Shown here: positions 626-48,677 of the stretch, in pieces
Layout of the letters: every line of letters starts with the position of its first letter
Position numbering within the stretch: the stretch's first letter is position 1
DNA from: a virus
Lineage: Duplodnaviria > Heunggongvirae > Uroviricota > Caudoviricetes
IMG/VR virus record: IMGVR_UViG_3300037313_001751
Coordinates: 1 to 64,000 of that record
Direction: 5' to 3' (one strand)
DNA: 64,000 nt
Translations under genes and position numbers: made by a program
The notes under the pieces: generated by a model
The model's database searches: none
What the model was told of the DNA's origin: nothing
The model's input: the letters and a program-made list of their open reading frames with translations, nothing else

Positions 626-653
626 GGATTTTTATTTAGTAGGAGCAATCTAG

Positions 654-724
654 TAGCCGGTACTGGAGTTGAACCAATATTAGCGAGGTCAAAGCTCGCC
701 GTCCTACCGTTGGACGAACCGGCC
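654..724 (-). tRNA. tRNA-Gln (anticodon UUG)
   Basis: Acceptor GGCCGGT/ACCGGCT, D arm GTCC-AACGGTA-GGAC, anticodon stem GCGAG/CTCGC with loop CTTTGAC, T loop TTCAACT; 71 nt, no CCA. Confidence 0.7.
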
Positions 725-1844: not shown

Positions 1845-2312
1845 TCAGTTGCCTTTTTGCCTCTGGTTAAGCTCTACCTTGTCTTCTATCTTTTTCACAT
1901 ATCTTAATGTTAAGAACGTCACGACTGTTAAAAATGCTGCGACTGCGTAGTTACCAAATCCTGAAGCAACGCCGATCGCGCATGTAATCCAGATGCTGGC
2001 TGCAGTGGCGGTTCCTTTAACTGTCATCTTGTCTTTAAGTATTGCACCACCACCAATGAATCCGATACCAGCAATGATGCCTTGAACAACTCCTTGCATC
2101 ACACGGCTATATTCGGCTGTGCCTTCGGCAAATTCGGCACGTATTGCTATAACAAAGCCGCAAGATGCTACTGCAACTAACGGAAAAGTTCGTAGACCAG
2201 CGCTACGTTCAGATATTGCGCGATTCAGTCCAATTGGTAGAGCAAGAAAATAGGCAACAGCTAATTTCAGTATTTCGATCTTTAGTGCATCAAAATCAAA
2301 ATGCATTTCCAA
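1845..2312 (-). CDS. mgtC: MgtC/SapB family membrane protein
   Basis: 155 aa, multi-TM; GLNRAISERSAGLRTFPLVAVASCGFV...IVQGIIAGIGFIGGGAIL is the conserved MgtC N-terminal core. Confidence 0.65.
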   Translation of the reverse strand: MEMHFDFDALKIEILKLAVAYFLALPIGLNRAISERSAGLRTFPLVAVASCGFVIAIRAEFAEGTAEYSRVMQGVVQGIIAGIGFIGGGAILKDKMTVKGTATAASIWITCAIGVASGFGNYAVAAFLTVVTFLTLRYVKKIEDKVELNQRQKGN

Positions 2313-3609: not shown

Positions 3610-4161
3610 CTACAACAAAATGGATTGGCGAGCATTTATCGAGGATTCAACAGCGTCAAGTCCCATTCGGATACCGCTTTCGTTTTCGAGCAACCATTCT
3701 GCATCGCGATGTTTCTCAATTCCGTTAAGCAAATTCACTAACTGGCCAATCATCTGTTGATCCCAGCGTATAAGCTGCTGAAGCGTTGCGGCCTCTTGTC
3801 TATAACGCTGTGTCATCCGGTCGGTGCTAGGGACTGGAAGGGCGCGTATCTTGCCCTCTAGTTGTGAGATCTTCCGCGATATCCGCTCTAGCGTGCGCGC
3901 ATTTTCAAGGGCTCTTTGGTCATAGGGATTGTCTTTTGTAGGTGGTGGCAGGTTCATGCGACGATATTCAGAGCCGACAGTCTCGAAATATCCTTTTGCA
4001 AGGCCGAGAAGATAGCTAGCTCTTGCCCTCACCTTCAGGTCATCTTGTCGTAACTGGTTTTCGACCTTATAAAAGTTATACCCCCAACCGTAAAAAGCCG
4101 TGATAGCTAATTGCTCAATGTAACTCGCATCGTAGAATCTAGAATATGACTCCTCGATCAT
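3610..4161 (-). CDS. hypothetical protein
   Basis: 183-aa ORF; compact operon with the downstream SPFH-like gene (12-bp gap). Confidence 0.5.
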   Translation of the reverse strand: MIEESYSRFYDASYIEQLAITAFYGWGYNFYKVENQLRQDDLKVRARASYLLGLAKGYFETVGSEYRRMNLPPPTKDNPYDQRALENARTLERISRKISQLEGKIRALPVPSTDRMTQRYRQEAATLQQLIRWDQQMIGQLVNLLNGIEKHRDAEWLLENESGIRMGLDAVESSINARQSILL

Positions 4162-4172
4162 CGTTGTCTCCG

Positions 4173-4997
4173 TTATATGCCGGTCTTGCCGTCGACTGGC
4201 ATTAGTGTATTACCACCAATATTGAAGGGCAAACCAGCCGCAGCATTTGGCGCTGATATTAAGCCTTTGTCAGCCATCATAAACGCAAGGTAAAACTGCG
4301 CTGCCTCCTTTGGCGTCAAGCCAAGTGCCTGTAGTGAAATTAGGCCGCGCATCCTGTCATCTTTTGGTACGACAAGGATTTTCAAGTCGTGTAGATGGAT
4401 TCCGTATTCTCTGAGGAACTCAGCTAGGTGGTTCTGAACGCCTTCGCGCAAGTCTGATATTCTCGAATTAATCTCCTCTAGTTTTGTTGTTTGAATTACC
4501 TGATTGATCGACTGTTCAATCGCTGGTCCAGCATAAGCGGCTACTTCTGACGTGTTGATTACCAGGCCGTCAAACGGCATATGTTGGACAAGTTGATTGG
4601 CATCCTCAGCGGTGTTGATCTGGATGTAATAGTCTGCTGTGTATCTAACCTCAGCCATTTCTGCCGTCGTTGCTGTGCCGACGTTTTGACACATAAGCTT
4701 GGACCGATTTACGAATACCACCTCGTAGACCCAAGGAGAATCGCCACCCCATGCAAATGCCCGCACGAAATTACCAACAACGGGTTTATCTTCTGTGATC
4801 AGCGTATACTGCCCCATTTCGTACGTCTGTAGTAGCACGCCGCGTTCACGGAATATAGCGAATTGGTTCGGCTCTACGGTAAGCAACGATCCTGATACAA
4901 CCGCATTGTCGGAGCGCTTTAGCGCAAGATTGGCCTTCCCTAACAGATCCTGGCCATCCTTGCCTGTGCAGGTTATTATTTGCCGTGAACTGGCCAT
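4173..4997 (-). CDS. SPFH/band-7 (stomatin/prohibitin-like) domain protein, tentative
   Basis: 274 aa; beta-rich N-region followed by a long helical region typical of SPFH proteins; assignment by overall pattern only. Confidence 0.45.
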   Translation of the reverse strand: MASSRQIITCTGKDGQDLLGKANLALKRSDNAVVSGSLLTVEPNQFAIFRERGVLLQTYEMGQYTLITEDKPVVGNFVRAFAWGGDSPWVYEVVFVNRSKLMCQNVGTATTAEMAEVRYTADYYIQINTAEDANQLVQHMPFDGLVINTSEVAAYAGPAIEQSINQVIQTTKLEEINSRISDLREGVQNHLAEFLREYGIHLHDLKILVVPKDDRMRGLISLQALGLTPKEAAQFYLAFMMADKGLISAPNAAAGLPFNIGGNTLMPVDGKTGI

Positions 4998-5070
4998 TTT
5001 GGTTTCCTCCTCGTATTATGCCAATGTAAAGCATCTCGCATAGCTGTCACGCTAAAATTTTATATCTGTG

Positions 5071-5727
5071 CTAACAATCGTAGCCTTCGATATTGCGTAA
5101 GCCAATTTCAGGGGCAGAAAGATAGGTATCAATATTAAGGACCTGGTAAAACATAGCCTCGTTATTCAATAGGAAGATGCGTATTTTCTCGTAGTCACCA
5201 AGCCACAAACCTCCGTCCTTCGTTCTGGCAAACTTTTTGTTAGCGCTATATGCAAGAAGTAGAGGTATCAAATCATCCCTAATTTGATTTATATTCCGGA
5301 GATTGACGCCGGTGCGCTCAATCCACATCGCAAGCGCTTGTAGACTAACGGTGACTATTGGCTGTGACACGGTCCCAGATTTTGGCGCGATCCGCACTTG
5401 CCATACGCCGACCGCATAATCGATGTCTTGGTTATCACGCCCCTTGTTTGGCACTGGCGCAATAAAATATTCGAGAAACAGGTATTTTTTGCGCTTCATT
5501 TCAACAGTTTGCTCAATGCTACAGCCATCATTTCTATAAGAACGCCATTCTTTTGCCAACTCAGCAAAACGCTCAGGCCGTAATGCATTAGACTTAGGGC
5601 TTATGGCGCGCTGCGTTTTTTGAATGACTAACGTCAGGCGTGAAACAGTCTGCTGTGTATGTTCGGTAAGATCAAACCAGAATTGCCTTGCTTGACCTAA
5701 ATATTCTCTCGGTATACTATTTGACAT
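5071..5727 (-). CDS. hypothetical protein
   Basis: 218-aa ORF. Confidence 0.5.
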   Translation of the reverse strand: MSNSIPREYLGQARQFWFDLTEHTQQTVSRLTLVIQKTQRAISPKSNALRPERFAELAKEWRSYRNDGCSIEQTVEMKRKKYLFLEYFIAPVPNKGRDNQDIDYAVGVWQVRIAPKSGTVSQPIVTVSLQALAMWIERTGVNLRNINQIRDDLIPLLLAYSANKKFARTKDGGLWLGDYEKIRIFLLNNEAMFYQVLNIDTYLSAPEIGLRNIEGYDC

Positions 5728-5867
5728 GCCAGCAATTTAACGGCTGCCCATGTGGTAAACAAGACGCTCTTCACTATTGACATCTTGAAATGGTGTCGAT
5801 GCGTCGCTTTAATCTGATGCCAGATTGCAAATAGGCTGCAGCGGCTCGTTCGTTCAGCGGCAGTTTT

Positions 5868-6245
5868 TTAACTGTCCACTTTCTGAAAAAAGCTGACAGT
5901 GTCGAGGATCCGTCGGCTGTTTGCCAAGGCTGTATAACTGCGTTCTAGCCGCTCCTCCAGCGCACATACCGCCTCACAACGTGCACGGGCGCTCCGACGC
6001 GCAGCATTGATAAGTTCTTCGCGGTAACGGTTCGCGGCTATCTTTATCTTGCTTGCTGGTTGGCTTGAAGATGAATAGACCATGTTTACACCTCGCCATA
6101 CCTCAAAGCTATCGTAGTGCTCCTTACAGCAATAATACCACACAAACGCGCCAACTTCCTGGGCGTTTCCGTCGTCGTGCGCGGAAAACCATTCACCTGC
6201 CCTAATATTACGACCGATCTTCAAATAGAAGCGGTAATTCTCCAT
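5868..6245 (-). CDS. hypothetical protein
   Basis: 125-aa ORF. Confidence 0.45.
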   Translation of the reverse strand: MENYRFYLKIGRNIRAGEWFSAHDDGNAQEVGAFVWYYCCKEHYDSFEVWRGVNMVYSSSSQPASKIKIAANRYREELINAARRSARARCEAVCALEERLERSYTALANSRRILDTVSFFQKVDS

Positions 6246-6355
6246 TGCTGTCTCCTGACTTCTATTTGATTGAAAAGAACACCACTTTCACATCAATGCA
6301 AGGGAAATGTGCCAGGATGTAACTATCGGTTACAATAGTTAATCTAATGTAGATA

Positions 6356-6444
6356 TTCCTGGCCGAGGATTCGAACCTCGCCTCCATTCAAATGGAGCCT
6401 TCCGATTAACAATCGGAGACCTTCACCAAGCCGGCCGGCCAGGA
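6356..6444 (-). tRNA. atypical long (type II-like) tRNA, identity ambiguous
   Basis: Perfect acceptor TCCTGGC/GCCAGGA, T arm CGAGG-TTCGAAT-CCTCG, D-loop TGGTGAAGG (Ser/Leu-like), then two consecutive anticodon-like hairpins: TCCGA-TTGTTAA-TCGGA (anticodon would be GUU) and CTCCA-TTTGAAT-TGGAG (would be UGA) within a 20-nt extra arm. Confidence 0.5.
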
Positions 6445-7170
6445 TCAACGGTATGCATTAAGCCTATATTCCACTGGCCTAACCATGGTATATTCGACAG
6501 CCAACATCACAGCAGCAAAGCAAATGCCGTAACCTATAATGCCAACTAAGTCGAAGTTTTGAAAACGAAGGCTGAGTTCGTAACCAACACCGTCTGATCG
6601 GCCAAGCAATTCGGCAACAAGAACAATTTTCCAGGTCAGCGAAATTCCAGTTCTAAACGCACTCACTATATAAGGTAACAATTGTGGAAGAATGCACACC
6701 CGAAGCCGTTGAACGACCGTTAAGCGGAATAGCCGAGCAACGTCTTCAAGTTCTCTATCAAACGCCTTAACCCCTTCACGGAATGTAGTGTAGTACGCTG
6801 GCACCTTCGTTATTGTAACAGCGCAAATCAACGCTACATCGGTCAATCCCAACCACACATATGCGAAGATCATCACAATAACCATAGGAAGGTTCATGAA
6901 GATTATTATCCAAGGATCGATAAAGGCGTCGAACCTTTCTGATTTGCCGGCGATAATGCCAGAAAGGATGCCAAGTGCGAACGAGGCAATAAACGAACAG
7001 GCAACGCGTCTTCCAGTAATAAGGATGGCAGATATCATTCTGCCATCCACTACCTCTTTTGACACAAACGTTAGGACTTGTAGCGGTCCTGGTATGTAAT
7101 GCAGTTTAGCAAAGAGGATCCAGGCACCCAGCCACAAGCAAAATGAGGCTATCCGAAGTGCTTTTACCAA
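6445..7170 (-). CDS. ABC transporter permease, NitT/TauT (SsuC/TauC-like) family
   Basis: 241 aa, about 6 TM segments; EAA-type loop ELEDVARLFRLTVVQRLRVCILPQLLP; C-terminus LVAELLGRSDGVGYEL typical of this permease family. Confidence 0.75.
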   Translation of the reverse strand: MVKALRIASFCLWLGAWILFAKLHYIPGPLQVLTFVSKEVVDGRMISAILITGRRVACSFIASFALGILSGIIAGKSERFDAFIDPWIIIFMNLPMVIVMIFAYVWLGLTDVALICAVTITKVPAYYTTFREGVKAFDRELEDVARLFRLTVVQRLRVCILPQLLPYIVSAFRTGISLTWKIVLVAELLGRSDGVGYELSLRFQNFDLVGIIGYGICFAAVMLAVEYTMVRPVEYRLNAYR

Positions 7171-8114
7171 AACACCCCGTCTATAACGGGACCACTTGTG
7201 CCGTTCAACCTTTGAACTATTTCACTAAGTATTCTTGCATCATTCTCGTTTTCGTCTTTGCGGCTGGTTTTAATGCCGTCTAAAAACCGCCGTTTAAGGA
7301 GAGAGAATTCTGTTTGTGTGACTTTGCTGACCAACGGCTTCACCTCATTCCATACTTTATCTTCCTTCAATTTGGCGCAAGCTGCTGCAACACATTCAGA
7401 GAACGCGCTAACGGTTCCTTTATTCTGTTCAGCCCATGGTTCGTGAAAAACAAAGCCGGTGAGGGCAAAGCCGTTCGACAACCCGACATGACGAGCTGCC
7501 GTCCTAACGTCCAAGAGATTCCGATACCCTAGTGCTTCAAGCTCTGGACAAAAATTCCAATAGGTAAGGACGGCGTTGAGTTTTCCATTTTCGAGCAACG
7601 CGGACAATATTGGTGGTGACGCATACGAAACAGTGGCCTCTTTCGCTATGTCAAAACCTGATTTAAGTAATGAGGCCCGAACAATTAACCATGATTTGTC
7701 TATCTCATTTCCAGCCACACCTAGCGTCTTTCCTTTCAAGCCATACGCGTGATCGATCGGCGCACTGGCAAAGATGCTTCCAGATGCACTAGAAAATGGC
7801 AAGAATTTAAGCGGGACTCCATATGCTCTTTGAGTTGCGGCAAAAAACCAATCAGATAGTATTATGTCAACAGAATTGGCTAAAAGCGCAGTGCGGCACG
7901 CTTCAATACTGGCCAATTTCGTTATAGAAAATGTGATTCCGTGCTCCTTATCCAAATCATGTCGTTGCGCAACATCGAGGACCCATTGTAATGAGCCATA
8001 CTCCAGCATACCGATCCTCAATGGAGTTGTTTGTGCATGGACTGAACTGGCTGACATTGAAACCCCTGCTATCATCAGTGCCCGTCTAGATATCATCCTG
8101 TGCTCCCTAAGCAC
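7164..8114 (-). CDS. ABC transporter periplasmic substrate-binding protein (NMT1/SsuA/TauA-like) with signal peptide
   Basis: N-terminal MISRRALMIAGVSMSASSVHAQ signal; immediately upstream of, and overlapping, the permease; alternating alpha/beta SBP-like sequence. Confidence 0.7.
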   Translation of the reverse strand: MLREHRMISRRALMIAGVSMSASSVHAQTTPLRIGMLEYGSLQWVLDVAQRHDLDKEHGITFSITKLASIEACRTALLANSVDIILSDWFFAATQRAYGVPLKFLPFSSASGSIFASAPIDHAYGLKGKTLGVAGNEIDKSWLIVRASLLKSGFDIAKEATVSYASPPILSALLENGKLNAVLTYWNFCPELEALGYRNLLDVRTAARHVGLSNGFALTGFVFHEPWAEQNKGTVSAFSECVAAACAKLKEDKVWNEVKPLVSKVTQTEFSLLKRRFLDGIKTSRKDENENDARILSEIVQRLNGTSGPVIDGVFW

Positions 8115-8207
8115 GAGAATAGTATAGAACAGATCTCCGCAATTTAAAGCAGAAAGTGGAGGACCTGCTTGGGAGGAAATCTGGTTCCTTACTGATCCAG
8201 AAAGCCA

Positions 8208-9005
8208 ATGCGCTATAGTTGCCAGCTACACATTGACATCCAATTTGCACGGCAGTACATCAGCTGTTGTTACCCTGTCAAGGACAGCATGATGGCATCC
8301 AATTTCAAAACCCAGCGCGACGATGACACAGACAGCTTCACTTCCCGGCTTGGCACTGCTTATCACATTGTGAGGGGCAGCAGAACAGCCGACCCACTTT
8401 ATATTGAGCTGCACAACCAGCAGCATATACTAGGATCGATTGACGCTATCATTGCGCGCGTGCTTCCACAACACAAGGGCGACACACTTGTTGGCGTTCG
8501 CGAACTTGCTGCTGAGTTGAAGGACACACGTGCCTCGTTGGAGGCGCGCCGGATTGAGCTCAGCGACGCAAACAAGACTATTGTCGCGGCCCAAAAAGAA
8601 CTTAAGGAGTTAAGAAATAAATTGGTTTCGACAGCTGACCAATCACAAACGCTTTTAGAAAAAGACGAGATTATTGTGAAACGCGGAGAAGAAATAGCAG
8701 ATCTTAACCACCAAAATGCGCAACTAACAGAGGAGAAAAATGCCATAAAAGCGGATTGTGATAAGCAGCTCGCCGAAGTAAAAAAGGAGCTCGAACAACT
8801 AAAAAAGGAGAAAAGCGAGCAGGCAGCGCAGCACACGCAACAAATAACTGGCATTAGTCAGCAACTCACGCAAGCGCAACAAGCATATGACAAACTCGGT
8901 GGAGAGATAAGAGCGCTGGTAACCGAAATCAATGCGAAGATCGATACGAAGCCTGCCCCTGACAGTATCGCTGACACAGGGTTCGCTTCACAATCAGTAA
9001 AGTAG
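8208..9005 (+). CDS. coiled-coil protein (Q/K/E-rich)
   Basis: 265 aa; long heptad region ELKELRNKLVS...EQLKKEKSEQAAQ; terminator downstream. Confidence 0.5.
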   Translation: MRYSCQLHIDIQFARQYISCCYPVKDSMMASNFKTQRDDDTDSFTSRLGTAYHIVRGSRTADPLYIELHNQQHILGSIDAIIARVLPQHKGDTLVGVRELAAELKDTRASLEARRIELSDANKTIVAAQKELKELRNKLVSTADQSQTLLEKDEIIVKRGEEIADLNHQNAQLTEEKNAIKADCDKQLAEVKKELEQLKKEKSEQAAQHTQQITGISQQLTQAQQAYDKLGGEIRALVTEINAKIDTKPAPDSIADTGFASQSVK

Positions 9006-9035
9006 GCCACCGCTTATGTAGGTTTCGTCAACTGA

Positions 9036-9072
9036 GCAAGAAGAGCATTGGCTCCTTGAAAAAGGAGCTTCT
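9036..9072 (+). terminator. rho-independent terminator
   Basis: GCTCCTT-GAAAA-AGGAGC hairpin followed by TTCTTTTTT. Confidence 0.55.
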
Positions 9073-9175
9073 TTTTTGAAGAAACCGATTTAACCTAGCA
9101 GAGTCTACGCAGCGAGCACGCATACTTAATATTGGGAGGCAATACACGAAAAATTTATCGTGCTAATTAGACAGT

Positions 9176-9691
9176 ATGAATGACTTTTTTGGAACAGGAA
9201 CTCGCGTTGCAATAGCCGTAACGGGTGCTATATCGGTAATAGCAGCAGTGGCCGGAGGGGCGATTACATTTTTTGTAACAAATGCGTCGCTTGCAAGCCA
9301 AGTTGCAGCAAATACCGCACGAATCAACACGATGCAAACTACGCTTGACGCTGTAGCTCAGTCAGCCAGTGGGTTGACAGCGCGCGTTGCAACCCTTGAA
9401 GGGAAGGTGACAAATGGTGATAGCAGATCATCTATCAATACGGAACGTATTGCTGCATTAAGGGCCGATGTAGTTAGGTTGATGGCAGATCTAAGAGAGG
9501 TGGAAACCCAATTCTGTGCATCAGATACAATTCGAAATCTGATGCATGCCAACGATCTGCGAATTTATTCATTGTTGTGGCAGAAAGTCTACAAATTTCC
9601 TTACCCAACCGACAATGCTTATTATCCTATGGTATGCAATCGTAACACGCAATCCAGTCTTGTAAGTAGCGAAATGAATGGCGAAAAATAG
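9176..9691 (+). CDS. membrane-anchored coiled-coil protein
   Basis: N-terminal TM (VAIAVTGAISVIAAVAGGAITFFV), then a helical repeat region. Confidence 0.45.
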   Translation: MNDFFGTGTRVAIAVTGAISVIAAVAGGAITFFVTNASLASQVAANTARINTMQTTLDAVAQSASGLTARVATLEGKVTNGDSRSSINTERIAALRADVVRLMADLREVETQFCASDTIRNLMHANDLRIYSLLWQKVYKFPYPTDNAYYPMVCNRNTQSSLVSSEMNGEK

Positions 9692-9738
9692 GTCTGCTGG
9701 AATACCTTTGTGTTCCATCCGCAGTTTCGATTGCTAAG

Positions 9739-10140
9739 CTACTCTGGGTTATCTTGATCACGCGACATTACATACCGCCGCACCTTGCGCGGATTGCTAT
9801 CGGCCACCACTTGAGTCTTAAGCTGTTCGATTTCAGCATCGGTAAGCGTTTCAGCCGCTACGATATAATTCCTGGCGTCATTAGTGGCGCGTATCAACTC
9901 ATCCAGCTTGACGTGGATAGCTGCGGTGTCTCTCGCTTGGCTATTTTGGAGCAGAAAGACCATCAAAAACGTCACTACTGTAGTTGCCGAATTGCAAACG
10001 AGTTGATAGGTATCAGACCAACCATAGTGTGGTCCTAAAGCCAACCAAACCACCATAGAAAGAGTGGCAAGAACAAATGTATGCGCTTTGCCAGCTTGCT
10101 TTGCAGCCCATTGAGCGAATTTGGAGAACCATTTATTCAT
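9739..10140 (-). CDS. small integral membrane protein, possibly low-affinity iron permease-like family
   Basis: 133 aa; core YQLVCNSATTVVTFLMVFLLQNSQARDTAAIHVKLDELI recalls the PF04120-type small permease signature, recalled from memory only. Confidence 0.45.
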   Translation of the reverse strand: MNKWFSKFAQWAAKQAGKAHTFVLATLSMVVWLALGPHYGWSDTYQLVCNSATTVVTFLMVFLLQNSQARDTAAIHVKLDELIRATNDARNYIVAAETLTDAEIEQLKTQVVADSNPRKVRRYVMSRDQDNPE

Positions 10141-10571
10141 TATCTGGTCCTCACGATCTTTTTAAATTTGTCTACCTCATCGTTATGGATGAGAACTGGT
10201 GCATATCGGTGGCCCATCTGGAAGGCAACATATAGCCGATGTCGGCCATTGCCGATCGATACAGGATGGTTTACGCGAGTTGGACTATCGTTGATCGACA
10301 CTTCAGCAGGATCCATATATCCACCGGACTTCCAATGTTCGGCAGCTCGTGGTATGCGCTTTCCAATCGCATTTTCGCCGCCTGTTGGATCATTTAAATC
10401 TAGCCGTGAATACCGATCTGTCAGCCTGAACATATCCTCGATATTAGCGTTGAGGATGGTGTATTCCGGATTTTTCTGATACCATTTGTTAGAAACACTT
10501 TTGTCTAGGTGTTGTCCAACAGCCCATCGAACATGATCGTCATCACGTTCATATATTTCAGCAAACCGCAT
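10140..10571 (-). CDS. ParB/sulfiredoxin-like nuclease-domain protein, tentative
   Basis: 143 aa; SIGNGRHRLYVAFQMG resembles the ParB N-terminal GxxRxxA motif. Confidence 0.4.
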   Translation of the reverse strand: MRFAEIYERDDDHVRWAVGQHLDKSVSNKWYQKNPEYTILNANIEDMFRLTDRYSRLDLNDPTGGENAIGKRIPRAAEHWKSGGYMDPAEVSINDSPTRVNHPVSIGNGRHRLYVAFQMGHRYAPVLIHNDEVDKFKKIVRTR

Positions 10572-10650
10572 CGCGCCTCCCGCAATTTATTCTTATATTT
10601 ACTGCAGGCGTTGGACGGTGTGCGCCTCGACGCAAAACTTACTAAATGTA

Positions 10651-10723
10651 TGACCTTGGCGGGACTTGAACCCAGCATTTTCCGCTTGAAAGGCGGCTCT
10701 CCGGACCTTTAGAGGACAAGGTC
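10651..10723 (-). tRNA. tRNA-Glu (anticodon UUC), probable
   Basis: Acceptor GACCTTG/CAAGGTC perfect, D arm CTCT-...-AGAG, anticodon loop CTTTCAA, T loop TTCAAGT. Confidence 0.6.
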
Positions 10724-10908
10724 ACAAATGTTAATCAGTAATCCACATCAACAATTGCCATGCGACTTGAATTCCTTTTTCAATTAGATCTAGATCTACA
10801 TGACGAACAAAGATTGCAACAACAAGAACGCCGACCAGAATTTGGACAACGGGATCTTTTACCGCACGGATAACAATCTCGCTAAGCACTACTACTCTCC
10901 TCGTTTGC

Positions 10909-11133
10909 TTACACTTTACGTTTGTGTTGACGGGACACGGTCAATTTGACAAAAATTGCCGCGACACCTACTATTTCAACACAACTTGCAAGAAACTGCA
11001 CTAACCAAGGATTATAGCCAATACTCATTGCGACTAAGCCAGCGATAGTAGGTATACAAAGGATGAGAATTAGGAGCTGCATATTGCGATCTTTGAACGC
11101 TGCGCGCAGCCCTGCATTCATCGCTGCCTCCAA
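10909..11133 (-). CDS. small membrane protein
   Basis: 74 aa with two hydrophobic helices. Confidence 0.3.
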   Translation of the reverse strand: MEAAMNAGLRAAFKDRNMQLLILILCIPTIAGLVAMSIGYNPWLVQFLASCVEIVGVAAIFVKLTVSRQHKRKV

Positions 11134-11136
11134 GAA

Positions 11137-11346
11137 CTACAGACGAAATGGATTGGTTAGAATTGTTATTGAGTGGCCACGTCTGCCACATTCCTTGCAC
11201 CGCAAAGGCAAATGTATCAACGGCGTATCTCCATGACCAGACTTTACCAGTGCTTCTAGATCAAGCTTAACATTATGGTCACAATATCTACAAGTCGCTA
11301 TTACGACATGGAGGTTGAGATATTGCCGCGGCGTTGGTAATTCCAT
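11137..11346 (-). CDS. small zinc-ribbon protein (CxxC...CxxC)
   Basis: C-terminal 70 aa of the 150-aa track ORF starting at MELPTP: CRYCDHNV...CKECGRRGH; the upstream part of that ORF conflicts with a better signal-peptide ORF. Confidence 0.35.
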   Translation of the reverse strand: MELPTPRQYLNLHVVIATCRYCDHNVKLDLEALVKSGHGDTPLIHLPLRCKECGRRGHSITILTNPFRL

Positions 11347-11350
11347 CACA

Positions 11351-11614
11351 CTACCTGCAACACCATCCATGACCGCAATAAAACCGACTGCCATACTCAC
11401 AACGCCAACGGTGTGGATACTCGCTGTAGCGATGTGGCGGCGGACGATAATACCCCGGAGGGGGTGGCGGAGGGTAGCCGGGATAGTAGTGGGGCCCATA
11501 GTAGGGTTGAGGTGGGGCATTATAGTAATCAGCGCTCGCGCCGTTCCAGGTAATGCCCGAAGCAAGTGCAGCAATAGCCAATGAACCAAAAACTCGTAAT
11601 AGCATTTTTACCAA
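11351..11614 (-). CDS. secreted Pro/Tyr-rich small protein
   Basis: Signal peptide MVKMLLRVFGSLAIAALASG, then YYNAPPQPYYGPHYYPGYPPPPPPGYY and C-terminal Cys cluster. Confidence 0.4.
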   Translation of the reverse strand: MVKMLLRVFGSLAIAALASGITWNGASADYYNAPPQPYYGPHYYPGYPPPPPPGYYRPPPHRYSEYPHRWRCEYGSRFYCGHGWCCR

Positions 11615-11747
11615 TCTCCTGTTACTAAACGCGATAACGCCAGTGAGCCAGATAAGTTACAGAAATATTTTGGCGCTTAAGGGGGTAACCAGACACCAAA
11701 ATGATGTGACCCAACTAGGTTTTCCAATCACCGTAATTTAATAAATG

Positions 11748-12314
11748 TTATAGTTTCACAAATTCCTGCCTAACCAGTTCGAAGGTTTTATACGTTTTGC
11801 CATCTTGCGTCCGGATAAAGACATCGGGATTCTCCTCAAGAAACAGTTTTAAAATTGTCATAGCTCTTACCACAGGTATCTCACTAGTGGATTCAACTGG
11901 GCGTGCCGAAACATCTGCTTGTTCATGCTCGCTTTCACTCACGTTGGCTGCCGTCATCGGGAATATCAGCAGTTCGTTATGTTCGCCACCACGTGTTGGT
12001 TCGCTAGTGAATGGGCTAAATGGCGTTTGTGGTGCGCCCTCGATACGTGACGCAGCAACCTGCAAATAGACCATAGTACGCGAGCCTTTAGTTTGTGCCG
12101 TAAACGCCGGACCCTCTGATTCTGTTCCTATATTCGGATCCTCGTCCTTACGCCGGAAAACAAGCCCTTCATGCCAAGAGCCATACAACGTCACATGATT
12201 ACCGACGATGTCGATTGACTTGAATACCTCCTGTACTTCACGTTGATTAAACGAGAATTTAATGGTAAACCTGTTGTTCGACCGGTAGCTGCTAACGCGC
12301 ATAACATCCTCCAT
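11748..12314 (-). CDS. hypothetical protein
   Basis: 188-aa ORF. Confidence 0.5.
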   Translation of the reverse strand: MEDVMRVSSYRSNNRFTIKFSFNQREVQEVFKSIDIVGNHVTLYGSWHEGLVFRRKDEDPNIGTESEGPAFTAQTKGSRTMVYLQVAASRIEGAPQTPFSPFTSEPTRGGEHNELLIFPMTAANVSESEHEQADVSARPVESTSEIPVVRAMTILKLFLEENPDVFIRTQDGKTYKTFELVRQEFVKL

Positions 12315-18493: not shown

Positions 18494-19432
18494 TTGGATC
18501 ATTTTATCATGGCCTATATTGGAACCGAATATAACCGAGAGAATGCTCTCTCCGCGTTGAAAAAAGCGTCTGAATGGCATAGGCAGCAAAAACAAAAGAG
18601 GATAGATGCGTACAATAAGAAGCCGAACAGGTGCGCGCGTCAAGCATGCAGTGCAAGCCTGCCTTATGAAGGTAGGCACAAACAGTATTGCTCGCGACAG
18701 TGCAGTTGTTCAACTTTAAGCGGGCGGATCGCCAGGACCGACTCGCAGAAGGCTAAAGCTTTGTTAACCCGCAAAAGGCAACAGCTCGCTCGCCATGAAT
18801 ATATTGCAAGGAGTAACTGCCTTAGGCACTGCGCAGACAAAAGCTATTCGTTCACCATGGTTAAAGCGTGCGAATGCATTAAATGCGACAATGTCTTTTT
18901 TGTTAGGAACTGGCAAGAACGCCGAAAGCTGTTGTGTAATCAATGTTTTTCAAAGCTTGATAGAATTCCGTACAGTGGTATTAAGGTACCATTCGTAAAC
19001 CCTTATGATGGCGAATTGGTTACTTTCGATAGCTCATGGGAGCTAGCTGTTGCCAAAGCACTAATCGAGCGAAATATTAGGTGGACTAAACCGGAGCCGA
19101 TCAGTTGGGTCGATTCACTAGGCAAAGTGCGACGTTACGTAGCTGATTTCTATCTTCCTAATTATGACGTATTCTTGGATCCAAAGAATGATTGGGTAAT
19201 CAACCATCAAAAAGAGAAACTTGATACAGTCTCGCGACAAGTTACGCTAGTCTATGGCAGTGTCAAAAAAATACTGCAACATGTCGACAATATGGTCCGG
19301 GTGAGGAATTCTGCCGTCCTGACTTCAAGGTCCCAAACCTTGCACTCTACTTCTGAGTTACAACCGGGAAATTTGTGCGAAAATGGTCGGAGTGGGCAAG
19401 AATTGCACTTACCATCCCTCCCGGCTCGATAG
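18494..19432 (+). CDS. zinc-ribbon N-terminus plus restriction-endonuclease-like (PD-(D/E)xK, DUF559/Vsr-like) C-terminal domain protein
   Basis: N-terminal CARQACSAS...CSRQCSCS; C-terminal RYVADFYLPNYDVFLDPKND fits the D...(D/E)xK core of Vsr-like nucleases. Confidence 0.45.
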   Translation: MDHFIMAYIGTEYNRENALSALKKASEWHRQQKQKRIDAYNKKPNRCARQACSASLPYEGRHKQYCSRQCSCSTLSGRIARTDSQKAKALLTRKRQQLARHEYIARSNCLRHCADKSYSFTMVKACECIKCDNVFFVRNWQERRKLLCNQCFSKLDRIPYSGIKVPFVNPYDGELVTFDSSWELAVAKALIERNIRWTKPEPISWVDSLGKVRRYVADFYLPNYDVFLDPKNDWVINHQKEKLDTVSRQVTLVYGSVKKILQHVDNMVRVRNSAVLTSRSQTLHSTSELQPGNLCENGRSGQELHLPSLPAR

Positions 19433-27794: not shown

Positions 27795-28535
27795 TTATGT
27801 GTTAGTATAATACAGGTAATCCGACATAGCCTGCTCATACTCAACGACACATGCCCGTGTATTACTGCTTATGTGCATGGCCTCAACCATTTCCTCAATG
27901 TTCAACCTGATTTCGGCAAATCTGTTTTCGTAGCCCGTATTGCCTATCATTCTAAATTCGAAATATGGATTTGCCGGAGCAGTATGGAAGCTTATCGCCC
28001 GGTACTTAGAATCAGGACTCATTTGCAGTCGCATTTGCAGGACCTTTGCCGCTTGTTTCCACGACGTTATGTGTTGTCGCTTAGTATGGCGTGTCCATTT
28101 TTTAAAATCACTATCATAGCTCTTGCAAAAGATATTTCTTTGGCGCTTGTATTGGGCGAGAAACTCGTTACACGGCGTGAAGACTATGAGCTTTACTGGA
28201 TCCACGTTTTTATTGCGCTGTATATCGATGAAGCTAAGGTTCACATGTAAGCCAGTTGTTCTGTTAGTGCGATGTCTCCTCTCTCCAATCCAACTTAGGA
28301 CTTCAGCTAGCCGCTGTAATCCATGCTTGTATGGAAGGCATGGTGTTACCAATTCGTGGCCAAAACAAAGGCGCGCCGGTTTGATCGAGCTATCAAACGC
28401 CATACGCCACCTTTCGTTCAACTTGCCGCCAAATGGCACGTTGAATGTTTTCTCTAGGTCTTCAATGATGTCTCTAGCTGTTGTGGCCGCAAAAAATTCA
28501 AACTCGAATCCAATCTGCGTTTTGTATGATTTCAT
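27795..28535 (-). CDS. hypothetical protein, possibly amidoligase (GS-like, PF12224-type) family
   Basis: 246 aa; N-terminal QIGFEFEFF resembles the amidoligase_2 opening motif; otherwise unassigned. Confidence 0.45.
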   Translation of the reverse strand: MKSYKTQIGFEFEFFAATTARDIIEDLEKTFNVPFGGKLNERWRMAFDSSIKPARLCFGHELVTPCLPYKHGLQRLAEVLSWIGERRHRTNRTTGLHVNLSFIDIQRNKNVDPVKLIVFTPCNEFLAQYKRQRNIFCKSYDSDFKKWTRHTKRQHITSWKQAAKVLQMRLQMSPDSKYRAISFHTAPANPYFEFRMIGNTGYENRFAEIRLNIEEMVEAMHISSNTRACVVEYEQAMSDYLYYTNT

Positions 28536-29455: not shown

Positions 29456-30700
29456 TCAACCTGTCTTTAATAGTTCCTTATATTCCTTAATAAGGATGGG
29501 GTTCTCTAAGCCATTTATCACATCTTTGCTAATGCGAACTTTTACAACGCCTTCGTCGCGTAGTTCGGCTAAAGTGAATTGAATTGGTAATAAACGCTTC
29601 TCAAGCACACCGCGCAAACCCCGCGCACCGGTCTTACGCTCGATTGCTCGTTTGGCGACTTGGCGCAGCGCGTCGGCATCAAATTCGAGCTCGATTTTTT
29701 CTAATTGGAAAAGTTTTGCAAATTGCTTAATTAGTGCGTTCTTCGGCTCCTGGAGGACTTGGACTAGCTGGTCTTCGGTCAATTCATCAAGATGAACTAT
29801 AATCGGCAGGCGCCCAACTAATTCAGGAATAAGGCCGTATTTGACCAAATCTTCCGGTTCGACTTGAGGAAGATAATTGTTTTGCTTCTCCTCACTTACT
29901 GCCTCAAGCCGTGAGCCATATCCAATCTTATTTTTATTCTTATTGAGTCTCTCACCGATTATTTCATTTAAGCCAACAAATGCGCCTCCAACGATAAAAA
30001 GGATATTCTTCGTGTTAACAATGATGGTTTCAGCCTGTGGATGTTTGCGGTTGCCTTGCATTGGCACACGGACCTCAGTGCCTTCGATGATTTTGAGGAG
30101 CGCCTGCTGAACGCCTTCTCCAGACACGTCCCGAGTGATTGACACGTTATCGCCTCGTTTGGCTTTCTTCTCTATTTCATCGATAAAAATAATCCCTCGC
30201 TCAGCTTTCGACACATCGCCATCGGCAACTTGCACCAACCTGGTAATGATTGTTTCGACGTCATCGCCAACATAGCCGGCTTCGGTAAGAGAGGTTGCGT
30301 CAGCAATAGTGAATGGAACATCTAATAGTTTTGCTATACTTTGTGCAATCAGCGTTTTTCCAGATCCCGAAGGGCCGAGTAATACCAGATTAGACTTTTC
30401 TAGCTCCACATCGTCAATAATAGGAAATTCGAGCCGCTTGTAATGGTTGTTAATTGCAACACTCATCACCATCTTGGCTTCTTCCTGGCCAATAACATAG
30501 TCGTCCAGGAATTTCATAATTTGCTTGCAAGTTGGAACCTTGTTTTTCTTCTGTGTTACGGCACCTTCTTTAAGAATCTCTGAGCACACCTTAATGCAAT
30601 CGTCGCAAATATATACGTCAGGGCCAGCGATCAATTTTTTGACCTGCGTTTGCTGCTTAGCGCAGAACGAACAGCTCAGAGTCTTTTTTGATTCGGTCAT
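29456..30700 (-). CDS. clpX: ATP-dependent Clp protease ATPase subunit ClpX
   Basis: N-terminal zinc-binding CSFCAKQ...CDDC; Walker [11 protein letters not shown]; Walker [10 protein letters not shown]; GYVGDDVE pore loop; sensor and C-terminal ClpX regions. Confidence 0.9.
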
Positions 30701-47756: not shown

Positions 47757-48677
47757 TTAAACACCAGTCTGGGTGTTTGTAATGGTAGCTACGTCCCTTG
47801 TTGCTGGAGCTCGAAGGTTTGACGCAAGTGCATCTTGGCGCTCGTTGACAAATCGGTTGGTAATTGAAGCTGCATAAGTATTGCCTTGAATGCTCGCAGT
47901 CCTCGCGTCATAAATTGTATTAACGAAGTCGCTTCCAGACATTGACGAGATATTTTTGCCTTGTAACGCTGCTGCCATTCCATTAGCGGCGCCGGCTGGC
48001 CCTGCGTGGACAGCCCAGCTATAAAATGCCTGCTGCACACCCAAAGGCTGTGCATTTATATCCACCCCTGTTGTTGCAAGAAGCTTTGCAACTGCTGGAT
48101 CATAATGGGTGGCTTGGATGAAATCGTCCTGATCTTGTGCAAACTGTGGATTGTTAGCAGCCTCATTTTTCCATGCAGCAACAAAGGTTGGATCACCTGT
48201 CGCAGCGGCTTGCGCGCCGCCTGCGTTGACTAAGTTTGCGTAAGCAGCTGGATCTGTTTTCTGCAATTGATTGAGGAAATTATTCATTGTGCCAGGTCCT
48301 GTGGCTATTTGGTACGCCCCGTATGATGGGCCGCCTTTATCACCAGGATTATTGCCAAACGCACCATAGTCACCAGTGCTTTCATATTTTTTTGAAAGTC
48401 CGCCAATTGACGGATCGACTGCTCGATTTGGCGCCGCTATGTTTGCACCAAGGCCAGTCGCATGCTGGCTTCCAGCCGCAGTATAACCACCACCAGGTCC
48501 AGCATTGCCAGCGCCACCGGGACTGCCATAAGCCGGCACTGTCCCGCCTCTACTCCGATCTTGGCCTATCGGCGTGCCATCAGGCGCTTTACCTTTCGAC
48601 GTGTCAGGTGCTGGAGACAGTTCTGCGGCAGAACCAGCAGCACCACCTGAGGATCCGCCACCACAATTGCACGCCAT
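47757..48677 (-). CDS. glycine-rich virion-associated protein with putative lytic transglycosylase (SLT-like) motifs
   Basis: 306 aa; N-terminal G/S/A-rich low-complexity region; KKYESTGDYGAF...GGPSYGAYQIATG (ES catalytic and G-x-x-Q motifs) and FYSWAVHAGPAG (AYN-G-like); directly upstream of the PAAR gene. Confidence 0.45.
   Translation of the reverse strand: MACNCGGGSSGGAAGSAAELSPAPDTSKGKAPDGTPIGQDRSRGGTVPAYGSPGGAGNAGPGGGYTAAGSQHATGLGANIAAPNRAVDPSIGGLSKKYESTGDYGAFGNNPGDKGGPSYGAYQIATGPGTMNNFLNQLQKTDPAAYANLVNAGGAQAAATGDPTFVAAWKNEAANNPQFAQDQDDFIQATHYDPAVAKLLATTGVDINAQPLGVQQAFYSWAVHAGPAGAANGMAAALQGKNISSMSGSDFVNTIYDARTASIQGNTYAASITNRFVNERQDALASNLRAPATRDVATITNTQTGV

What the first reader, a model, noticed from the sequence alone, without database searches (positions are those of the whole stretch)
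6356..6444. 89-nt tRNA with two consecutive anticodon-like hairpins
The acceptor stem is perfect (TCCTGGC/GCCAGGA), the T arm is canonical (CGAGG-TTCGAAT-CCTCG) and the D loop is Ser/Leu-like (TGGTGAAGG). Between the D arm and the T arm there are two hairpins, each with a 5-bp stem and a 7-nt loop. The first is TCCGA-UUGUUAA-TCGGA, with GUU in the anticodon position. The second is CTCCA-UUUGAAU-TGGAG, with UGA in the anticodon position. One of them must be the extra arm of a type II tRNA. A type II scaffold with a GUU anticodon would be unprecedented, while the second loop reads like a perfect tRNA-Ser(UGA) anticodon loop. It could be a chimeric or recoding tRNA, a tRNA with an intron-like insertion, or a misfolded Ser tRNA.
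Basis: seen in the sequence. Interest (0 to 1): 0.55.

Follow-up and report, generated by a model that had tools for sequence, protein, structure and literature searches.

The report
Phage asparagine tRNA with extra arm
This is a real phage tRNA gene that reads asparagine codons but carries the long extra arm normally seen only on serine, leucine and tyrosine tRNAs; the design turns out to be common in phages (phiKZ has one), so it is not a unique chimera, though it is barely described.

Summary
The 89-nt element (window 6356-6444, minus strand) is a genuine tRNA gene with anticodon GUU and a class II body. It has a 3-bp D stem with an 11-nt D loop and a 20-nt variable region.

It is a 6-bp stem with a UUGA tetraloop (or 5 bp with a 6-nt loop), not a 7-nt loop. 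It is an ordinary variable arm.

I found 28 further distinct relatives with the same architecture. Covariation supports every helix that varies, including the variable-arm stem. Their variable-arm loops are mostly GAAA tetraloops.

Across phage contigs there are at least 99 distinct long-arm tRNA(GUU) genes, about 8% of a sample of phage GUU tRNAs. GenBank annotates such genes as tRNA-Asn in phiKZ (89 nt), Salmonella phage 7t3 (89 nt) and Sinorhizobium phage Phosso (86 nt). Phosso is the closest cultured relative of this window's phage.

Their acceptor ends (U1-A72, G73) match ordinary tRNA-Asn, so asparagine acceptance is the likeliest identity. The window copy is atypical in three ways: C8, A73, and an Rfam tRNA score below threshold.

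Verdict: a new member of an existing but under-described kind. The dual-anticodon, chimeric and Ser(UGA) readings are rejected. The function of the arm is unknown.

The parts
6356..6444 (-). Whole tRNA(GUU) gene, 89 nt. No CCA is encoded. It starts directly after the stop codon (6445-6447) of the upstream ABC-permease ORF.
   Evidence: ARAGORN; sequence; family alignment and covariation.
6438..6444 (-). Acceptor stem, 5' strand UCCUGGC (nt 1-7). U1 pairs with A72.
   Evidence: Sequence. All 7 pairs covary in the family and 99.5% of cells are paired. U1-A72 occurs in 28 of 29 members.
6436..6437 (-). Positions 8-9, C8 G9. The family has G8 in 28 of 29. C8 can pair with the last T-stem G and so allows an alternative 8/4 arrangement.
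6419..6435 (-). Class II-type D arm: 3-bp stem GCC/GGU around the 11-nt GGCUUGGUGAA (G18 G19 present, G14 instead of A14).
   Evidence: Sequence. D-stem pairs are 100% paired and two show changes on both sides. The loop is nearly invariant in the family.
6401..6417 (-). Anticodon arm UCCGA-UUGUUAA-UCGGA. The anticodon GUU lies at 6408-6410.
   Evidence: ARAGORN; sequence. All 5 stem pairs show compensatory changes.
6381..6400 (-).
   Evidence: The same 3+stem+loop+1 layout occurs in 28 of 29 family members by the per-sequence fold. The outer 3 stem pairs are 100% paired, with CG, AU, GC, UA and UG types.
6364..6380 (-). T arm CGAGG-UUCGAAU-CCUCG.
   Evidence: Sequence. It is invariant in the family because it was part of the search pattern, so it gives no covariation information.
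6357..6363 (-). Acceptor stem, 3' strand GCCAGGA.
6356..6356 (-). Discriminator A73, followed by UAUCU. The family has G73 in 27 of 29 members.

Best explanation
**Shown.**
- This is a structurally intact tRNA gene of a jumbo phage whose nearest cultured relatives infect Rhizobiales.
- Its anticodon is GUU, so it reads AAU and AAC.
- It has a 7/5 cloverleaf of class II type. The second hairpin is the variable arm.
- It belongs to a conserved family (29 distinct sequences). That family lies within a much larger, polyphyletic set of phage-encoded long-arm tRNA(GUU) genes.
- That set includes the annotated tRNA-Asn of phiKZ, Salmonella phage 7t3 and Sinorhizobium phage Phosso.

**Inferred.**
- It is cut out of a polycistronic transcript by RNase P and 3' nucleases, and the host enzyme adds CCA.
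- It is charged as an asparagine tRNA. This could be direct, by AsnRS, or by non-discriminating AspRS followed by GatCAB, for which U1-A72 is the determinant.
- It then supplies AAY decoding during infection.
- The extra arm is a phage-specific addition to a cognate tRNA, not a change of meaning.
- Its most plausible role is to make the phage tRNA differ in shape from the host tRNA-Asn. That could protect it from tRNA-targeting nucleases of the host or of the phage itself. No step of this role has been shown.

**Caveat.** The window copy has A73 and C8, so its charging efficiency, and even its identity, are less certain than for its relatives.
For: **It is a tRNA with a variable arm.**
- ARAGORN calls it tRNA-Asn(gtt).
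- All helices are perfect.
- In the family alignment 97.8% of cells are paired against 76% when shuffled. 17 of 23 pairs change on both sides, and 0 of 500 shuffles reach the observed values. The variable-arm stem is included.
- The variable-arm layout is uniform: 3 unpaired nt, a 4-6 bp stem, a tetraloop and one G.

**Asn-type acceptor end.**
- U1-A72 occurs in 28 of 29 family members and G73 in 27 of 29.
- Most begin UCC..., which I recall is how E. coli tRNA-Asn begins (my own knowledge; no cellular tRNA-Asn was retrieved here).
- Across 99 long-arm GUU tRNAs, U1-A72 is 67% and G73 is 89%. In 50 ordinary short phage tRNA-Asn from the same loci the figures are 74% and 94%.
- Published identity rules: the anticodon plus G73 for aminoacylation, and U1-A72 for amidation (PMC9976931).

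**The same pattern in other identities.** Long-arm versions of Gly, Cys, His, Lys, fMet, Gln and Thr tRNAs in the same arrays each keep their own discriminator and first pair, judged by eye from the sequence list.

**AAY means Asn in this phage.** AAY makes up 4.6% of codons in its conserved genes. The catalytic GHKL Asn of topoisomerase II (EIIDNGLD) is encoded by AAT.

**Restricted to phage-like contexts.** In 185,579 species genomes the pattern hit long-arm GUU tRNAs mostly inside phage-like arrays of 7-23 tRNAs per 8 kb. A few lay in short stretches with 1-3 tRNAs.

**Present in cultured phages.** phiKZ, 7t3 and Phosso carry such genes annotated as tRNA-Asn.
Against: - No aminoacylation or expression data exist for any member.
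- The window copy has A73. G73 is a determinant for both AsnRS and AspRS.
- It also has C8 and U32 at sites that are 93-97% conserved in its family.
- It falls below the Rfam tRNA gathering score. L077 scores 34.3 bits and phiKZ 53.7.
- A long arm plus G73 is also the core of serine identity, so SerRS charging of the relatives cannot be excluded from sequence alone.
[quoted passage not shown] This is general knowledge and was not tested here.
- 23-35% of loci carry a canonical tRNA-Asn as well, often in tandem. That argues the long form is not simply redundant.
Confidence: 0.6

Rival explanations
1. It is a missense tRNA. The class II body and long arm recruit SerRS (or, with A73, another synthetase such as LysRS or TyrRS). 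AAY codons are then read partly as a non-Asn residue, as allo-tRNAs do in bacteria.
For: - The D arm is Ser-like (3-bp stem, GGUGAA) and only one unpaired nt lies 3' of the arm.
- Most relatives have G73.
- Allo-tRNAs with non-Ser anticodons are serylated and toxic in E. coli (PMC5389517).
- In class II tRNAs the A73/G73 choice switches Leu and Ser identity (PMC9976931).
- Long and short GUU tRNAs co-occur 2-3 times more often than other same-anticodon duplicates.
Against: - U1-A72 and C2-G71 are conserved, whereas as I recall tRNA-Ser has G1-C72 and G2-C71.
- The window copy has A73, which disfavours SerRS.
- Three unpaired nt lie 5' of the arm, unlike the E. coli tRNA-Ser sequences I recall, which have one on each side.
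- C15:G48 and G20a do not fit the LeuRS determinants A15-U48 and A20a.
- The phage's own essential Asn codons are AAY.
- The same acceptor-end statistics hold for ordinary phage tRNA-Asn.
Confidence: 0.12
2. It is not used in translation. It is either a decaying pseudo-tRNA, or a tRNA-shaped decoy or regulator, for example a sponge for a tRNA-directed defence nuclease.
For: - The window copy departs from its family at three near-invariant sites (C8, U32, A73), has no CCA, and scores below 29 bits with the Rfam tRNA model.
- Cellulophaga phage phi4:1's long-arm GUU tRNA is annotated as a pseudo-tRNA.
- Septu and retron-Eco7 cleave the variable arm of tRNA-Tyr, and over-expressed phage tRNA-Tyr blunts them (PMC13096335).
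Against: - Every helix pair is intact, including a variable-arm stem extended to 6 bp. G18G19, U33, A37 and the T loop are all present.
- Five of the 12 tRNAs in this window lack an encoded CCA.
- The family is under clear purifying and compensatory selection, with an invariant GUU anticodon.
Confidence: 0.15
3. Structural variant, compatible with the best explanation. In this copy the C8 substitution shifts the acceptor/T branch from 7/5 to 8/4 (8-bp acceptor, 4-bp D stem, 4-bp T stem), like the (8/4) tRNA-Ser and tRNA-His reported from alphaproteobacterial phages.
For: - The minimum-free-energy fold is the 8/4 form.
- Evaluated energies are -38.3 kcal/mol for 8/4 and -34.1 for 7/5.
- Rfam's best sub-threshold match is tRNA-Sec.
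- The phage's nearest relatives infect alphaproteobacteria.
- Mukai et al. report 8/4 tRNAs in such phages.
Against: - In 28 of 29 family members position 8 is G opposite an invariant G, so 8/4 cannot form there.
- Nearest-neighbour energies ignore tertiary interactions.
- The D arm is not the long stem plus tetraloop of allo-tRNAs.
Confidence: 0.2
4. One reading: a chimeric, dual-anticodon or recoding tRNA, or a tRNA-Ser(UGA) with an inserted hairpin or intron.
For: Only the chance occurrence of UGA inside the variable-arm loop.
Against: - The loop is 6 nt, or 4 nt with the sixth pair.
- Using it as the anticodon arm leaves a 1-nt variable region.
- Relatives have GAAA, GUAA or GGGA loops and unrelated stems at this position, while GUU and its loop are invariant.
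Confidence: 0.02

Closest known systems
Long-arm tRNA-Asn genes already annotated in cultured phages: phiKZ (AF399011, 269557-269645, 89 nt), Salmonella phage 7t3 (MK773491, 5713-5801, 89 nt), Sinorhizobium phage Phosso (PV764938, 424816-424901, 86 nt)
   Same: - GUU anticodon, a class II-type D arm (3-bp stem) and a stem-loop variable arm.
- U1-A72 and G73 in phiKZ and Phosso.
- Located in jumbo-phage tRNA regions.
- Phosso's arm has the same layout as the window's: 3 unpaired nt, a 4-bp stem, a tetraloop and 1 unpaired nt. Phosso is also the closest phage by topoisomerase II, at 57% amino-acid identity.
   Different: - The phiKZ and 7t3 arms have a 1+stem+3 layout, which matches the E. coli tRNA-Tyr sequence as I recall it, and they have U8. 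Those two pass the Rfam tRNA threshold (48-54 bits); Phosso was not scored.
- The window copy has C8, G14 and A73, encodes no CCA, and fails the threshold.
- None of these genes has been studied structurally or biochemically in the papers I could search.
Bacterial class II tRNAs (tRNA-Ser, tRNA-Leu, tRNA-Tyr)
   Same: - A long variable arm.
- A 3-bp D stem with an enlarged D loop (GGUGAA, as in tRNA-Ser).
- The 7/5 acceptor/T branch.
   Different: - The anticodon is GUU.
- U1-A72 and C2-G71 replace G1-C72 and G2-C71.
- The arm is flanked by 3 and 1 unpaired nt. In the E. coli sequences I recall, Ser has 1 and 1, while Leu and Tyr have 1 and 3.
- The family has G8 (the window copy C8), G14 and C15:G48 instead of U8, A14 and G15:C48 or A15:U48.
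Canonical bacterial and phage tRNA-Asn (class I, 72-77 nt)
   Same: - The anticodon loop YUGUUAA.
- A UCC... start with U1-A72, as I recall for E. coli tRNA-Asn.
- G73 in relatives.
- The anticodon stem CGGA/UCCG, identical in several relatives to the E. coli tRNA-Asn stem as I recall it.
   Different: - A 20-nt variable arm instead of 4-5 nt.
- A class II D arm.
- A73 in the window copy.
allo-tRNAs and (8/4) tRNA-Ser/tRNA-His (Mukai et al. 2017, PMC5389517)
   Same: - A long arm on tRNAs with non-Ser anticodons, some of them phage-borne.
- They were picked up by the tRNA-Sec model, as here.
- The window copy can draw an 8/4 fold.
   Different: - Allo-tRNAs have an 8/4 or 9/3 branch, a long D stem with a tetraloop, and a longer anticodon stem.
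- This family is 7/5 by covariation, with a 3-bp D stem, an 11-nt D loop and a 5-bp anticodon stem.
- GUU is not mentioned in that paper's text.
Phage T5 tRNA-Tyr, whose distinct variable loop escapes retron-Eco7/PtuAB (PMC11555353, PMC13096335)
   Same: A phage tRNA whose variable arm differs from the host's, in a setting where defence nucleases cut tRNA variable arms.
   Different: - There the host tRNA already has the arm and the defence is identified.
- Here the arm is added to an identity that normally lacks one, and no matching nuclease is known.

Membership tests
tRNA (canonical cloverleaf, Rfam RF00005) | 7-bp acceptor stem; 5-bp T stem with a GTTCGAATC-type loop; 5-bp anticodon stem with a 7-nt loop, U33 and purine 37; G18G19 in the D loop. 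| tested here: met
   Sequence; ARAGORN; compensatory changes in the acceptor, D, anticodon and variable-arm helices.
tRNA (canonical cloverleaf, Rfam RF00005) | Score at or above the curated gathering threshold (29 bits). | tested here: not met
   No family reaches its gathering score at 6300-6500. Relatives pass: L077 34.3, 7t3 48.0, phiKZ 53.7 bits.
tRNA (canonical cloverleaf, Rfam RF00005) | The U8-A14 tertiary pair. | tested here: not met
   The window has C8 and G14. The family has G8 (28 of 29) and an invariant G14.
Class II (long variable arm) tRNA | A variable region longer than 10 nt that forms a stem-loop, together with a 3-bp D stem. | tested here: met
   The region is 20 nt: a 6-bp stem plus a UUGA loop. 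The arm stem covaries.
Bacterial tRNA-Asn identity | Anticodon G34 U35 U36. | tested here: met
   The anticodon is invariant in the family. Rule taken from PMC9976931.
Bacterial tRNA-Asn identity | Discriminator G73. | tested here: not met
   The window has A73. G73 occurs in 27 of 29 family members and 89% of 99 long-arm GUU tRNAs.
Bacterial tRNA-Asn identity | U1-A72, the determinant for GatCAB amidation. | tested here: met
   It occurs in 28 of 29 family members. Rule taken from PMC9976931.
Bacterial tRNA-Asn identity | Actual charging with Asn (or with Asp followed by amidation). | not testable with these tools
   This needs aminoacylation assays or tRNA mass spectrometry.
tRNA-Ser (SerRS substrate) | Long arm with Ser-type geometry, plus G73 and G1-C72/G2-C71. 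| tested here: not met
   The long arm is present, but the copy has A73, U1-A72 and C2-G71, and the arm has 3 unpaired nt on its 5' side.
allo-tRNA / (8/4) or (9/3) tRNAs | An 8/4 or 9/3 acceptor/T branch. | tested here: inconclusive
   In the window copy the 8/4 fold is energetically preferred. It is impossible in 28 of 29 relatives, where G8 faces G.
allo-tRNA / (8/4) or (9/3) tRNAs | A long D stem with a tetraloop and an extended anticodon stem. | tested here: not met
   The copy has a 3-bp D stem, an 11-nt D loop and a 5-bp anticodon stem. Definition taken from PMC5389517.
tRNA-Sec (RF01852) | The gathering score of 47 bits; also, from general knowledge, a UCA anticodon and a 13-bp acceptor/T branch. 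| tested here: not met
   31.3 bits, a GUU anticodon and a 12-bp branch.
Phage long-arm tRNA(GUU), family c (defined here) | UNN... acceptor stem with U1-A72; D arm NNN-GGCU(A/U/G)GG(U/C)GAA-NNN; YUGUUAA loop; variable arm of 3 unpaired nt + 4-6 bp stem + tetraloop + G; T arm CGAGGUUCGAAUCCUCG. | tested here: met
   The window copy differs only at C8, U32 and A73 and in lacking an encoded CCA.

The most novel reading that the evidence does not exclude
Adding a long variable arm to otherwise cognate tRNAs may be a systematic phage adaptation that has evolved several times.

- It affects about 8% of sampled phage tRNA-Asn genes.
- It is also seen on Thr, Lys, Gly, Cys, His, Met, Ile and Gln tRNAs.
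- It often sits beside a normal copy of the same tRNA.

Under this reading the arm marks or shields phage tRNAs in conflicts over tRNA cleavage. Alternatively it gives them a second, non-canonical charging route. The window copy (A73, C8, an 8/4-capable fold) would then be a member that has shifted its identity or its fold. The idea is directly testable in phiKZ and Phosso.
Probability: 0.25. Interest if true: 0.7.

Novelty: new member of a known kind. Interest (0 to 1): 0.35.

Why it matters
**For this window.** The result removes a false lead. There is no dual-anticodon or recoding tRNA here, only the phage's AAY-reading tRNA.

**More broadly.** Textbooks restrict long variable arms in bacteria to Ser, Leu, Tyr and Sec tRNAs. 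The searches made here show that phages routinely carry long-arm tRNA-Asn and long-arm versions of other class I tRNAs. Several unrelated scaffolds are involved. None turned up as an evident native cellular tRNA-Asn in the one genome scan made. I found no paper that discusses this.

Variable arms are already known targets of anti-phage nucleases in the case of tRNA-Tyr. The class therefore offers a testable link between tRNA architecture, synthetase recognition and phage-host conflict, with cultured models available (phiKZ with Pseudomonas, Phosso with Sinorhizobium).

**For annotation.** Some of these genes are missed or called pseudo-tRNAs. The window copy fails the Rfam threshold, and the Cellulophaga phage copy is labelled tRNA-OTHER.

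Tried and rejected
- **Megablast of window 4000-12000 against cultured phages:** no match.
- **blastn of the tRNA itself:** no match at E <= 0.01.
- **Pattern GGTGAAGG-N7-TTGTTAA in viral contigs:** 56 hits, all chance matches in coding sequence and none a tRNA. Relatives have CUGUUAA rather than UUGUUAA.
- **Relatives of the adjacent ABC-permease gene in viral contigs:** none confirmed, so no syntenic loci were obtained.
- **Second hairpin as the anticodon arm (Ser-UGA):** rejected on geometry (6-nt loop, 1-nt variable region) and on the family comparison.
- **Allo-tRNA or tRNA-Sec membership:** rejected on D-arm and anticodon-stem architecture, score and covariation.
- **Native cellular class II tRNA-Asn that phages merely copy:**
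  - The genome scan of 185,579 species returned mostly phage-like tRNA arrays, a few short stretches with 1-3 tRNAs, and archaeal hits that look intron-containing.
  - That pattern required an encoded G73-CCA end, so cellular genes without an encoded CCA were not sampled.
- **Long and short GUU tRNAs of one phage as recent duplicates:** rejected. With the arm removed, their identity averages about 0.68, against a background of 0.67.
- **Acinetobacter and Aeromonas T4-like phage tRNA-Asn hits:** these are 77-79 nt, and the Acinetobacter one has a partly similar D loop; neither has a long arm.
- **Atu_ph07 region 440-490 kb:** only one tRNA (Cys). The rest of that genome was not scanned.
- **Eight literature searches for a description of class II tRNA-Asn in phages:** nothing found. 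The supplement of Mukai et al. is not held.
Full report
**1. What is in the sequence**

The finding lies on the minus strand. Read 5'->3' from 6444 to 6356, the 89 nt are:

UCCUGGC CG GCC GGCUUGGUGAA GGU C UCCGA UUGUUAA UCGGA AGG-CUCCAU-UUGA-AUGGAG-G CGAGG UUCGAAU CCUCG GCCAGGA A.

ARAGORN calls it tRNA-Asn(gtt), with the anticodon at position 35.

The second hairpin is not. With the extra A-U/U-A pair it becomes a 6-bp stem closed by a UUGA tetraloop. If that hairpin were the anticodon arm, only one nucleotide would remain as the variable region. The only cloverleaf in register therefore has GUU as the anticodon and the second hairpin as a 20-nt variable arm.

The fold is far better than shuffled controls (z = -3.8).

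No CCA is encoded and the discriminator is A. Five of the 12 tRNAs in this window also lack an encoded CCA.

The general Rfam tRNA model does not reach its threshold, and no other family does either. The best sub-threshold hit is tRNA-Sec at 31.3 bits, against a threshold of 47.

**2. Context**

The window is part of a jumbo phage. It encodes:
- T4-type topoisomerase II subunits;
- ClpX;
- a VapE-like primase/helicase;
- a DnaB with an intein;
- virion proteins and cell-wall hydrolases.

At least 12 tRNA genes lie scattered among small ORFs on the minus strand.

The closest cultured phages by topoisomerase II are Sinorhizobium phage Phosso (57% identity) and Agrobacterium phage Atu_ph07 (51%).

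The tRNA begins right after the stop codon of an ABC-permease ORF. No promoter or terminator signal stands out above chance. This fits processing from a longer transcript, which is an inference.

**3. Relatives**

*Collecting them.*
- After ARAGORN filtering it gave more than 60 distinct tRNA(GUU) genes of 83-94 nt.
- A narrower pattern using this tRNA's T arm gave the true family in IMG/VR and in metagenomes.

*The family.* It holds 29 distinct sequences including the window's. All share:
- a 3-bp D stem around GGCU(A/U/G)GG(U/C)GAA (a subgroup has AGCU...GAC);
- a YUGUUAA anticodon loop;
- a variable region that, in 28 of 29, is built as 3 unpaired nt + a 4-6 bp stem + a tetraloop (mostly GAAA) + one G.

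*Covariation on the family alignment.*

| Measure | Observed | Shuffled control |
|---|---|---|
| Cells forming a standard pair | 97.8% | 76% |
| Pairs with changes on both sides | 17 of 23 | mean 10.0 |
| Shuffles reaching the observed values | 0 of 500 | - |

The three alignable variable-arm pairs are 100% paired, with five different pair types. The T stem was fixed by the search pattern and so gives no information.

The variable arm is therefore a conserved structural element with free sequence. It does not resemble an anticodon loop in any relative.

**4. How common, and where**

Pooling all scans gives 99 distinct long-arm tRNA(GUU) sequences.

They fall into several unrelated scaffolds:
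- family c, with a 3+stem+1 arm and a Ser-like D arm;
- a group with a 1+stem+3/4 arm and a CCC-GAG..GGC.A.A-GGG D arm, which resembles E. coli tRNA-Tyr as I recall that sequence;
- a group with an ordinary 4-bp class I D arm and a hairpin in the variable loop.

In one genome per species for 185,579 prokaryotic species, the pattern found about 20 long-arm GUU tRNAs. Most were inside phage-like arrays of 7-23 tRNAs per 8 kb. A few lay in short stretches with only 1-3 tRNAs. There were also archaeal hits that look intron-containing. I saw no evident native cellular class II tRNA-Asn. That scan required an encoded G73-CCA end.

Cultured phages carry the same kind of gene, annotated plainly as tRNA-Asn:

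| Phage | Length |
|---|---|
| phiKZ | 89 nt |
| Salmonella phage 7t3 | 89 nt |
| Sinorhizobium phage Phosso | 86 nt |

Phosso also has a normal 75-nt tRNA-Asn, and its long copy has the same 3+stem+tetraloop+1 arm as the window's. Cellulophaga phage phi4:1 has a long-arm GUU tRNA labelled tRNA-OTHER/pseudo.

So a type II scaffold with GUU is not unprecedented. It has sat in GenBank since the phiKZ genome was deposited. Eight full-text searches found no paper that discusses it.

**5. Which amino acid?**

Nothing here measures charging. The argument is from identity elements.

*Published rules.* Asn identity rests on the anticodon plus G73. Amidation of Asp-tRNA(Asn) by GatCAB depends on U1-A72, with G1-C72 and U20a acting as antideterminants (PMC9976931).

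*What the sequences show.*

| Set | U1-A72 | G73 |
|---|---|---|
| Family c (29) | 28 of 29 | 27 of 29 |
| All long-arm GUU tRNAs (99) | 67% | 89% |
| Ordinary short phage tRNA-Asn, same loci (50) | 74% | 94% |

Most family members begin UCC, as I recall for E. coli tRNA-Asn.

By eye, long-arm versions of Gly, Cys, His, Lys, initiator Met, Gln and Thr tRNAs in the same arrays likewise keep the discriminator and first pair typical of their own amino acid.

The phage itself uses AAY for 4.6% of codons. That includes the catalytic GHKL asparagine of its topoisomerase. A serine-inserting AAY reader would damage the phage's own proteins.

These points favour a cognate Asn tRNA carrying an added arm.

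*Against this.*
- A long arm plus G73 is also the core of Ser identity, and allo-tRNAs show that such bodies can be serylated.
- The family's C2-G71, U1-A72 and 3-nt 5' spacer do not fit tRNA-Ser as I recall it, but SerRS charging cannot be excluded without an assay.

**6. What is peculiar to the window copy**

It differs from its family at three nearly invariant sites:
- C8 (G in 28 of 29);
- U32 (C in 27 of 29);
- A73 (G in 27 of 29).

Every helix is nonetheless intact, and the variable-arm stem is among the longest.

C8 can pair with the last G of the T stem, so the minimum-energy structure is an 8/4 arrangement. The evaluated energies are -38.3 kcal/mol for 8/4 and -34.1 for 7/5. In the relatives G8 faces G, so 8/4 is impossible there. 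Mukai et al. reported 8/4 tRNA-Ser and tRNA-His in alphaproteobacterial phages, which keeps the possibility open but unproven.

A73 weakens both the Asn and the Ser determinant sets. The only other A73 member (L193/L199) lies 96 nt from a canonical G73 tRNA-Asn. No canonical GUU tRNA lies within this 64-kb window.

**7. Why an extra arm?**

This is not shown. The facts that bear on it are:
- The long and short forms co-occur in 27 of 115 loci, and in 22 of 62 loci with at least 10 tRNAs. They are often in tandem. The baseline for duplicates of other anticodons is about 10%.
- The co-resident pairs are no more similar to each other than random pairs. They are distinct genes kept together.
- Several unrelated scaffolds carry the arm, which suggests repeated selection for it.
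- Defence systems (retron-Eco7/PtuAB, Septu) cleave the variable arm of tRNA-Tyr. T5 tRNA-Tyr escapes through a different variable loop. So the arm is a known interface in phage-host conflict.

My working hypothesis is that the arm makes phage tRNA-Asn structurally distinct from the host's. That could let it escape a nuclease, or mark it as phage-derived. I hold this with low confidence.

**8. Verdict**

The tRNA is real, but the second hairpin was mis-described.

It is a type II scaffold with a GUU anticodon. It is not unprecedented, chimeric or dual-anticodon.

It is a new and somewhat aberrant member of an existing, under-described kind.

Noticed in passing
Loci L058-L262 (for example L077 414-499, L179 4350-4436 and 7161-7247, L125 8996-9214, L257 1255-1345): Phage tRNA arrays contain long-variable-arm versions (82-98 nt) of many class I tRNAs: Thr, Lys, Gly, Cys, His, Met/fMet, Ile, Gln, Glu, Asp, Trp and Pro. 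By eye, each keeps the discriminator and first base pair typical of its own amino acid.
   Followed up: partly
L139, L202, L059, L146, L125, L259, L193/L199, L109, L136; also L380 44198-44272 with 47817-47902: A long-arm and a canonical tRNA(GUU) often lie in the same array, frequently less than 100 nt apart. This holds in 27 of 115 loci, against about 10% duplication for other anticodons. The paired genes are not recent duplicates of each other.
   Followed up: yes
L380 6345-6437 (Phosso), L262 3783-3873, L058 265-354, L087 2871-2960, L118 4202-4291: There is a recurrent tRNA(UAU) of 90-93 nt with a long arm that contains a CCAGAU(U/A/C) motif. It resembles the allo-tRNA(UAU) group that Mukai et al. 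suspected of non-translational roles.
   Followed up: no
window 10651-10723 (-) and 19296-19367 (-): Two further tRNAs are found by Rfam but not by ARAGORN: Glu(UUC) and Pro(UGG). The Pro tRNA has an unusual T loop, GGCAGAA.
   Followed up: partly
window 653-724 (-): The phage tRNA-Gln(UUG) has G1-U72 and discriminator A rather than the U1-A72/G73 I recall for bacterial tRNA-Gln.
   Followed up: no
window 1845-2312, 4173-4997, 6445-7170, 7164-8114 (all -): Host-like membrane genes sit inside the phage tRNA region: MgtC, an SPFH/band-7 protein, an ABC-transporter permease and an NMT1-like substrate-binding protein. The last two lie directly upstream of the tRNA.
   Followed up: no
window 27795-28535, 29456-30700, 44717-45841, 47757-48677, 62935-63963: Other notable phage genes: an amidoligase, a full ClpX homologue, a PAS-domain histidine kinase, a VgrG3-C/chitosanase-like protein and a DnaB helicase with an intein fragment.
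   Followed up: no
Family c alignment A2 (columns 8, 14, 15, 65): The family has G8 (28 of 29) and invariant G14 and C15:G48 in place of the standard U8-A14 and G15-C48 tertiary pairs. This implies an unusual tRNA core.
   Followed up: no
L267 598-679 and 1051-1124 (Cellulophaga phage phi4:1): A structurally intact long-arm tRNA(GUU) is annotated as tRNA-OTHER/tRNA-Pseudo, which suggests that annotation pipelines under-call this class.
   Followed up: partly
L379 and L380 (Atu_ph07, Phosso): The nearest cultured relatives encode translation factors and tRNA enzymes. These include threonyl-tRNA synthetase, a protein annotated as tRNA amidotransferase, peptidyl-tRNA hydrolase, IF-3, ribosome recycling factor and ribosomal protein S21. 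The 'tRNA amidotransferase' could be relevant to Asn-tRNA formation.
   Followed up: no
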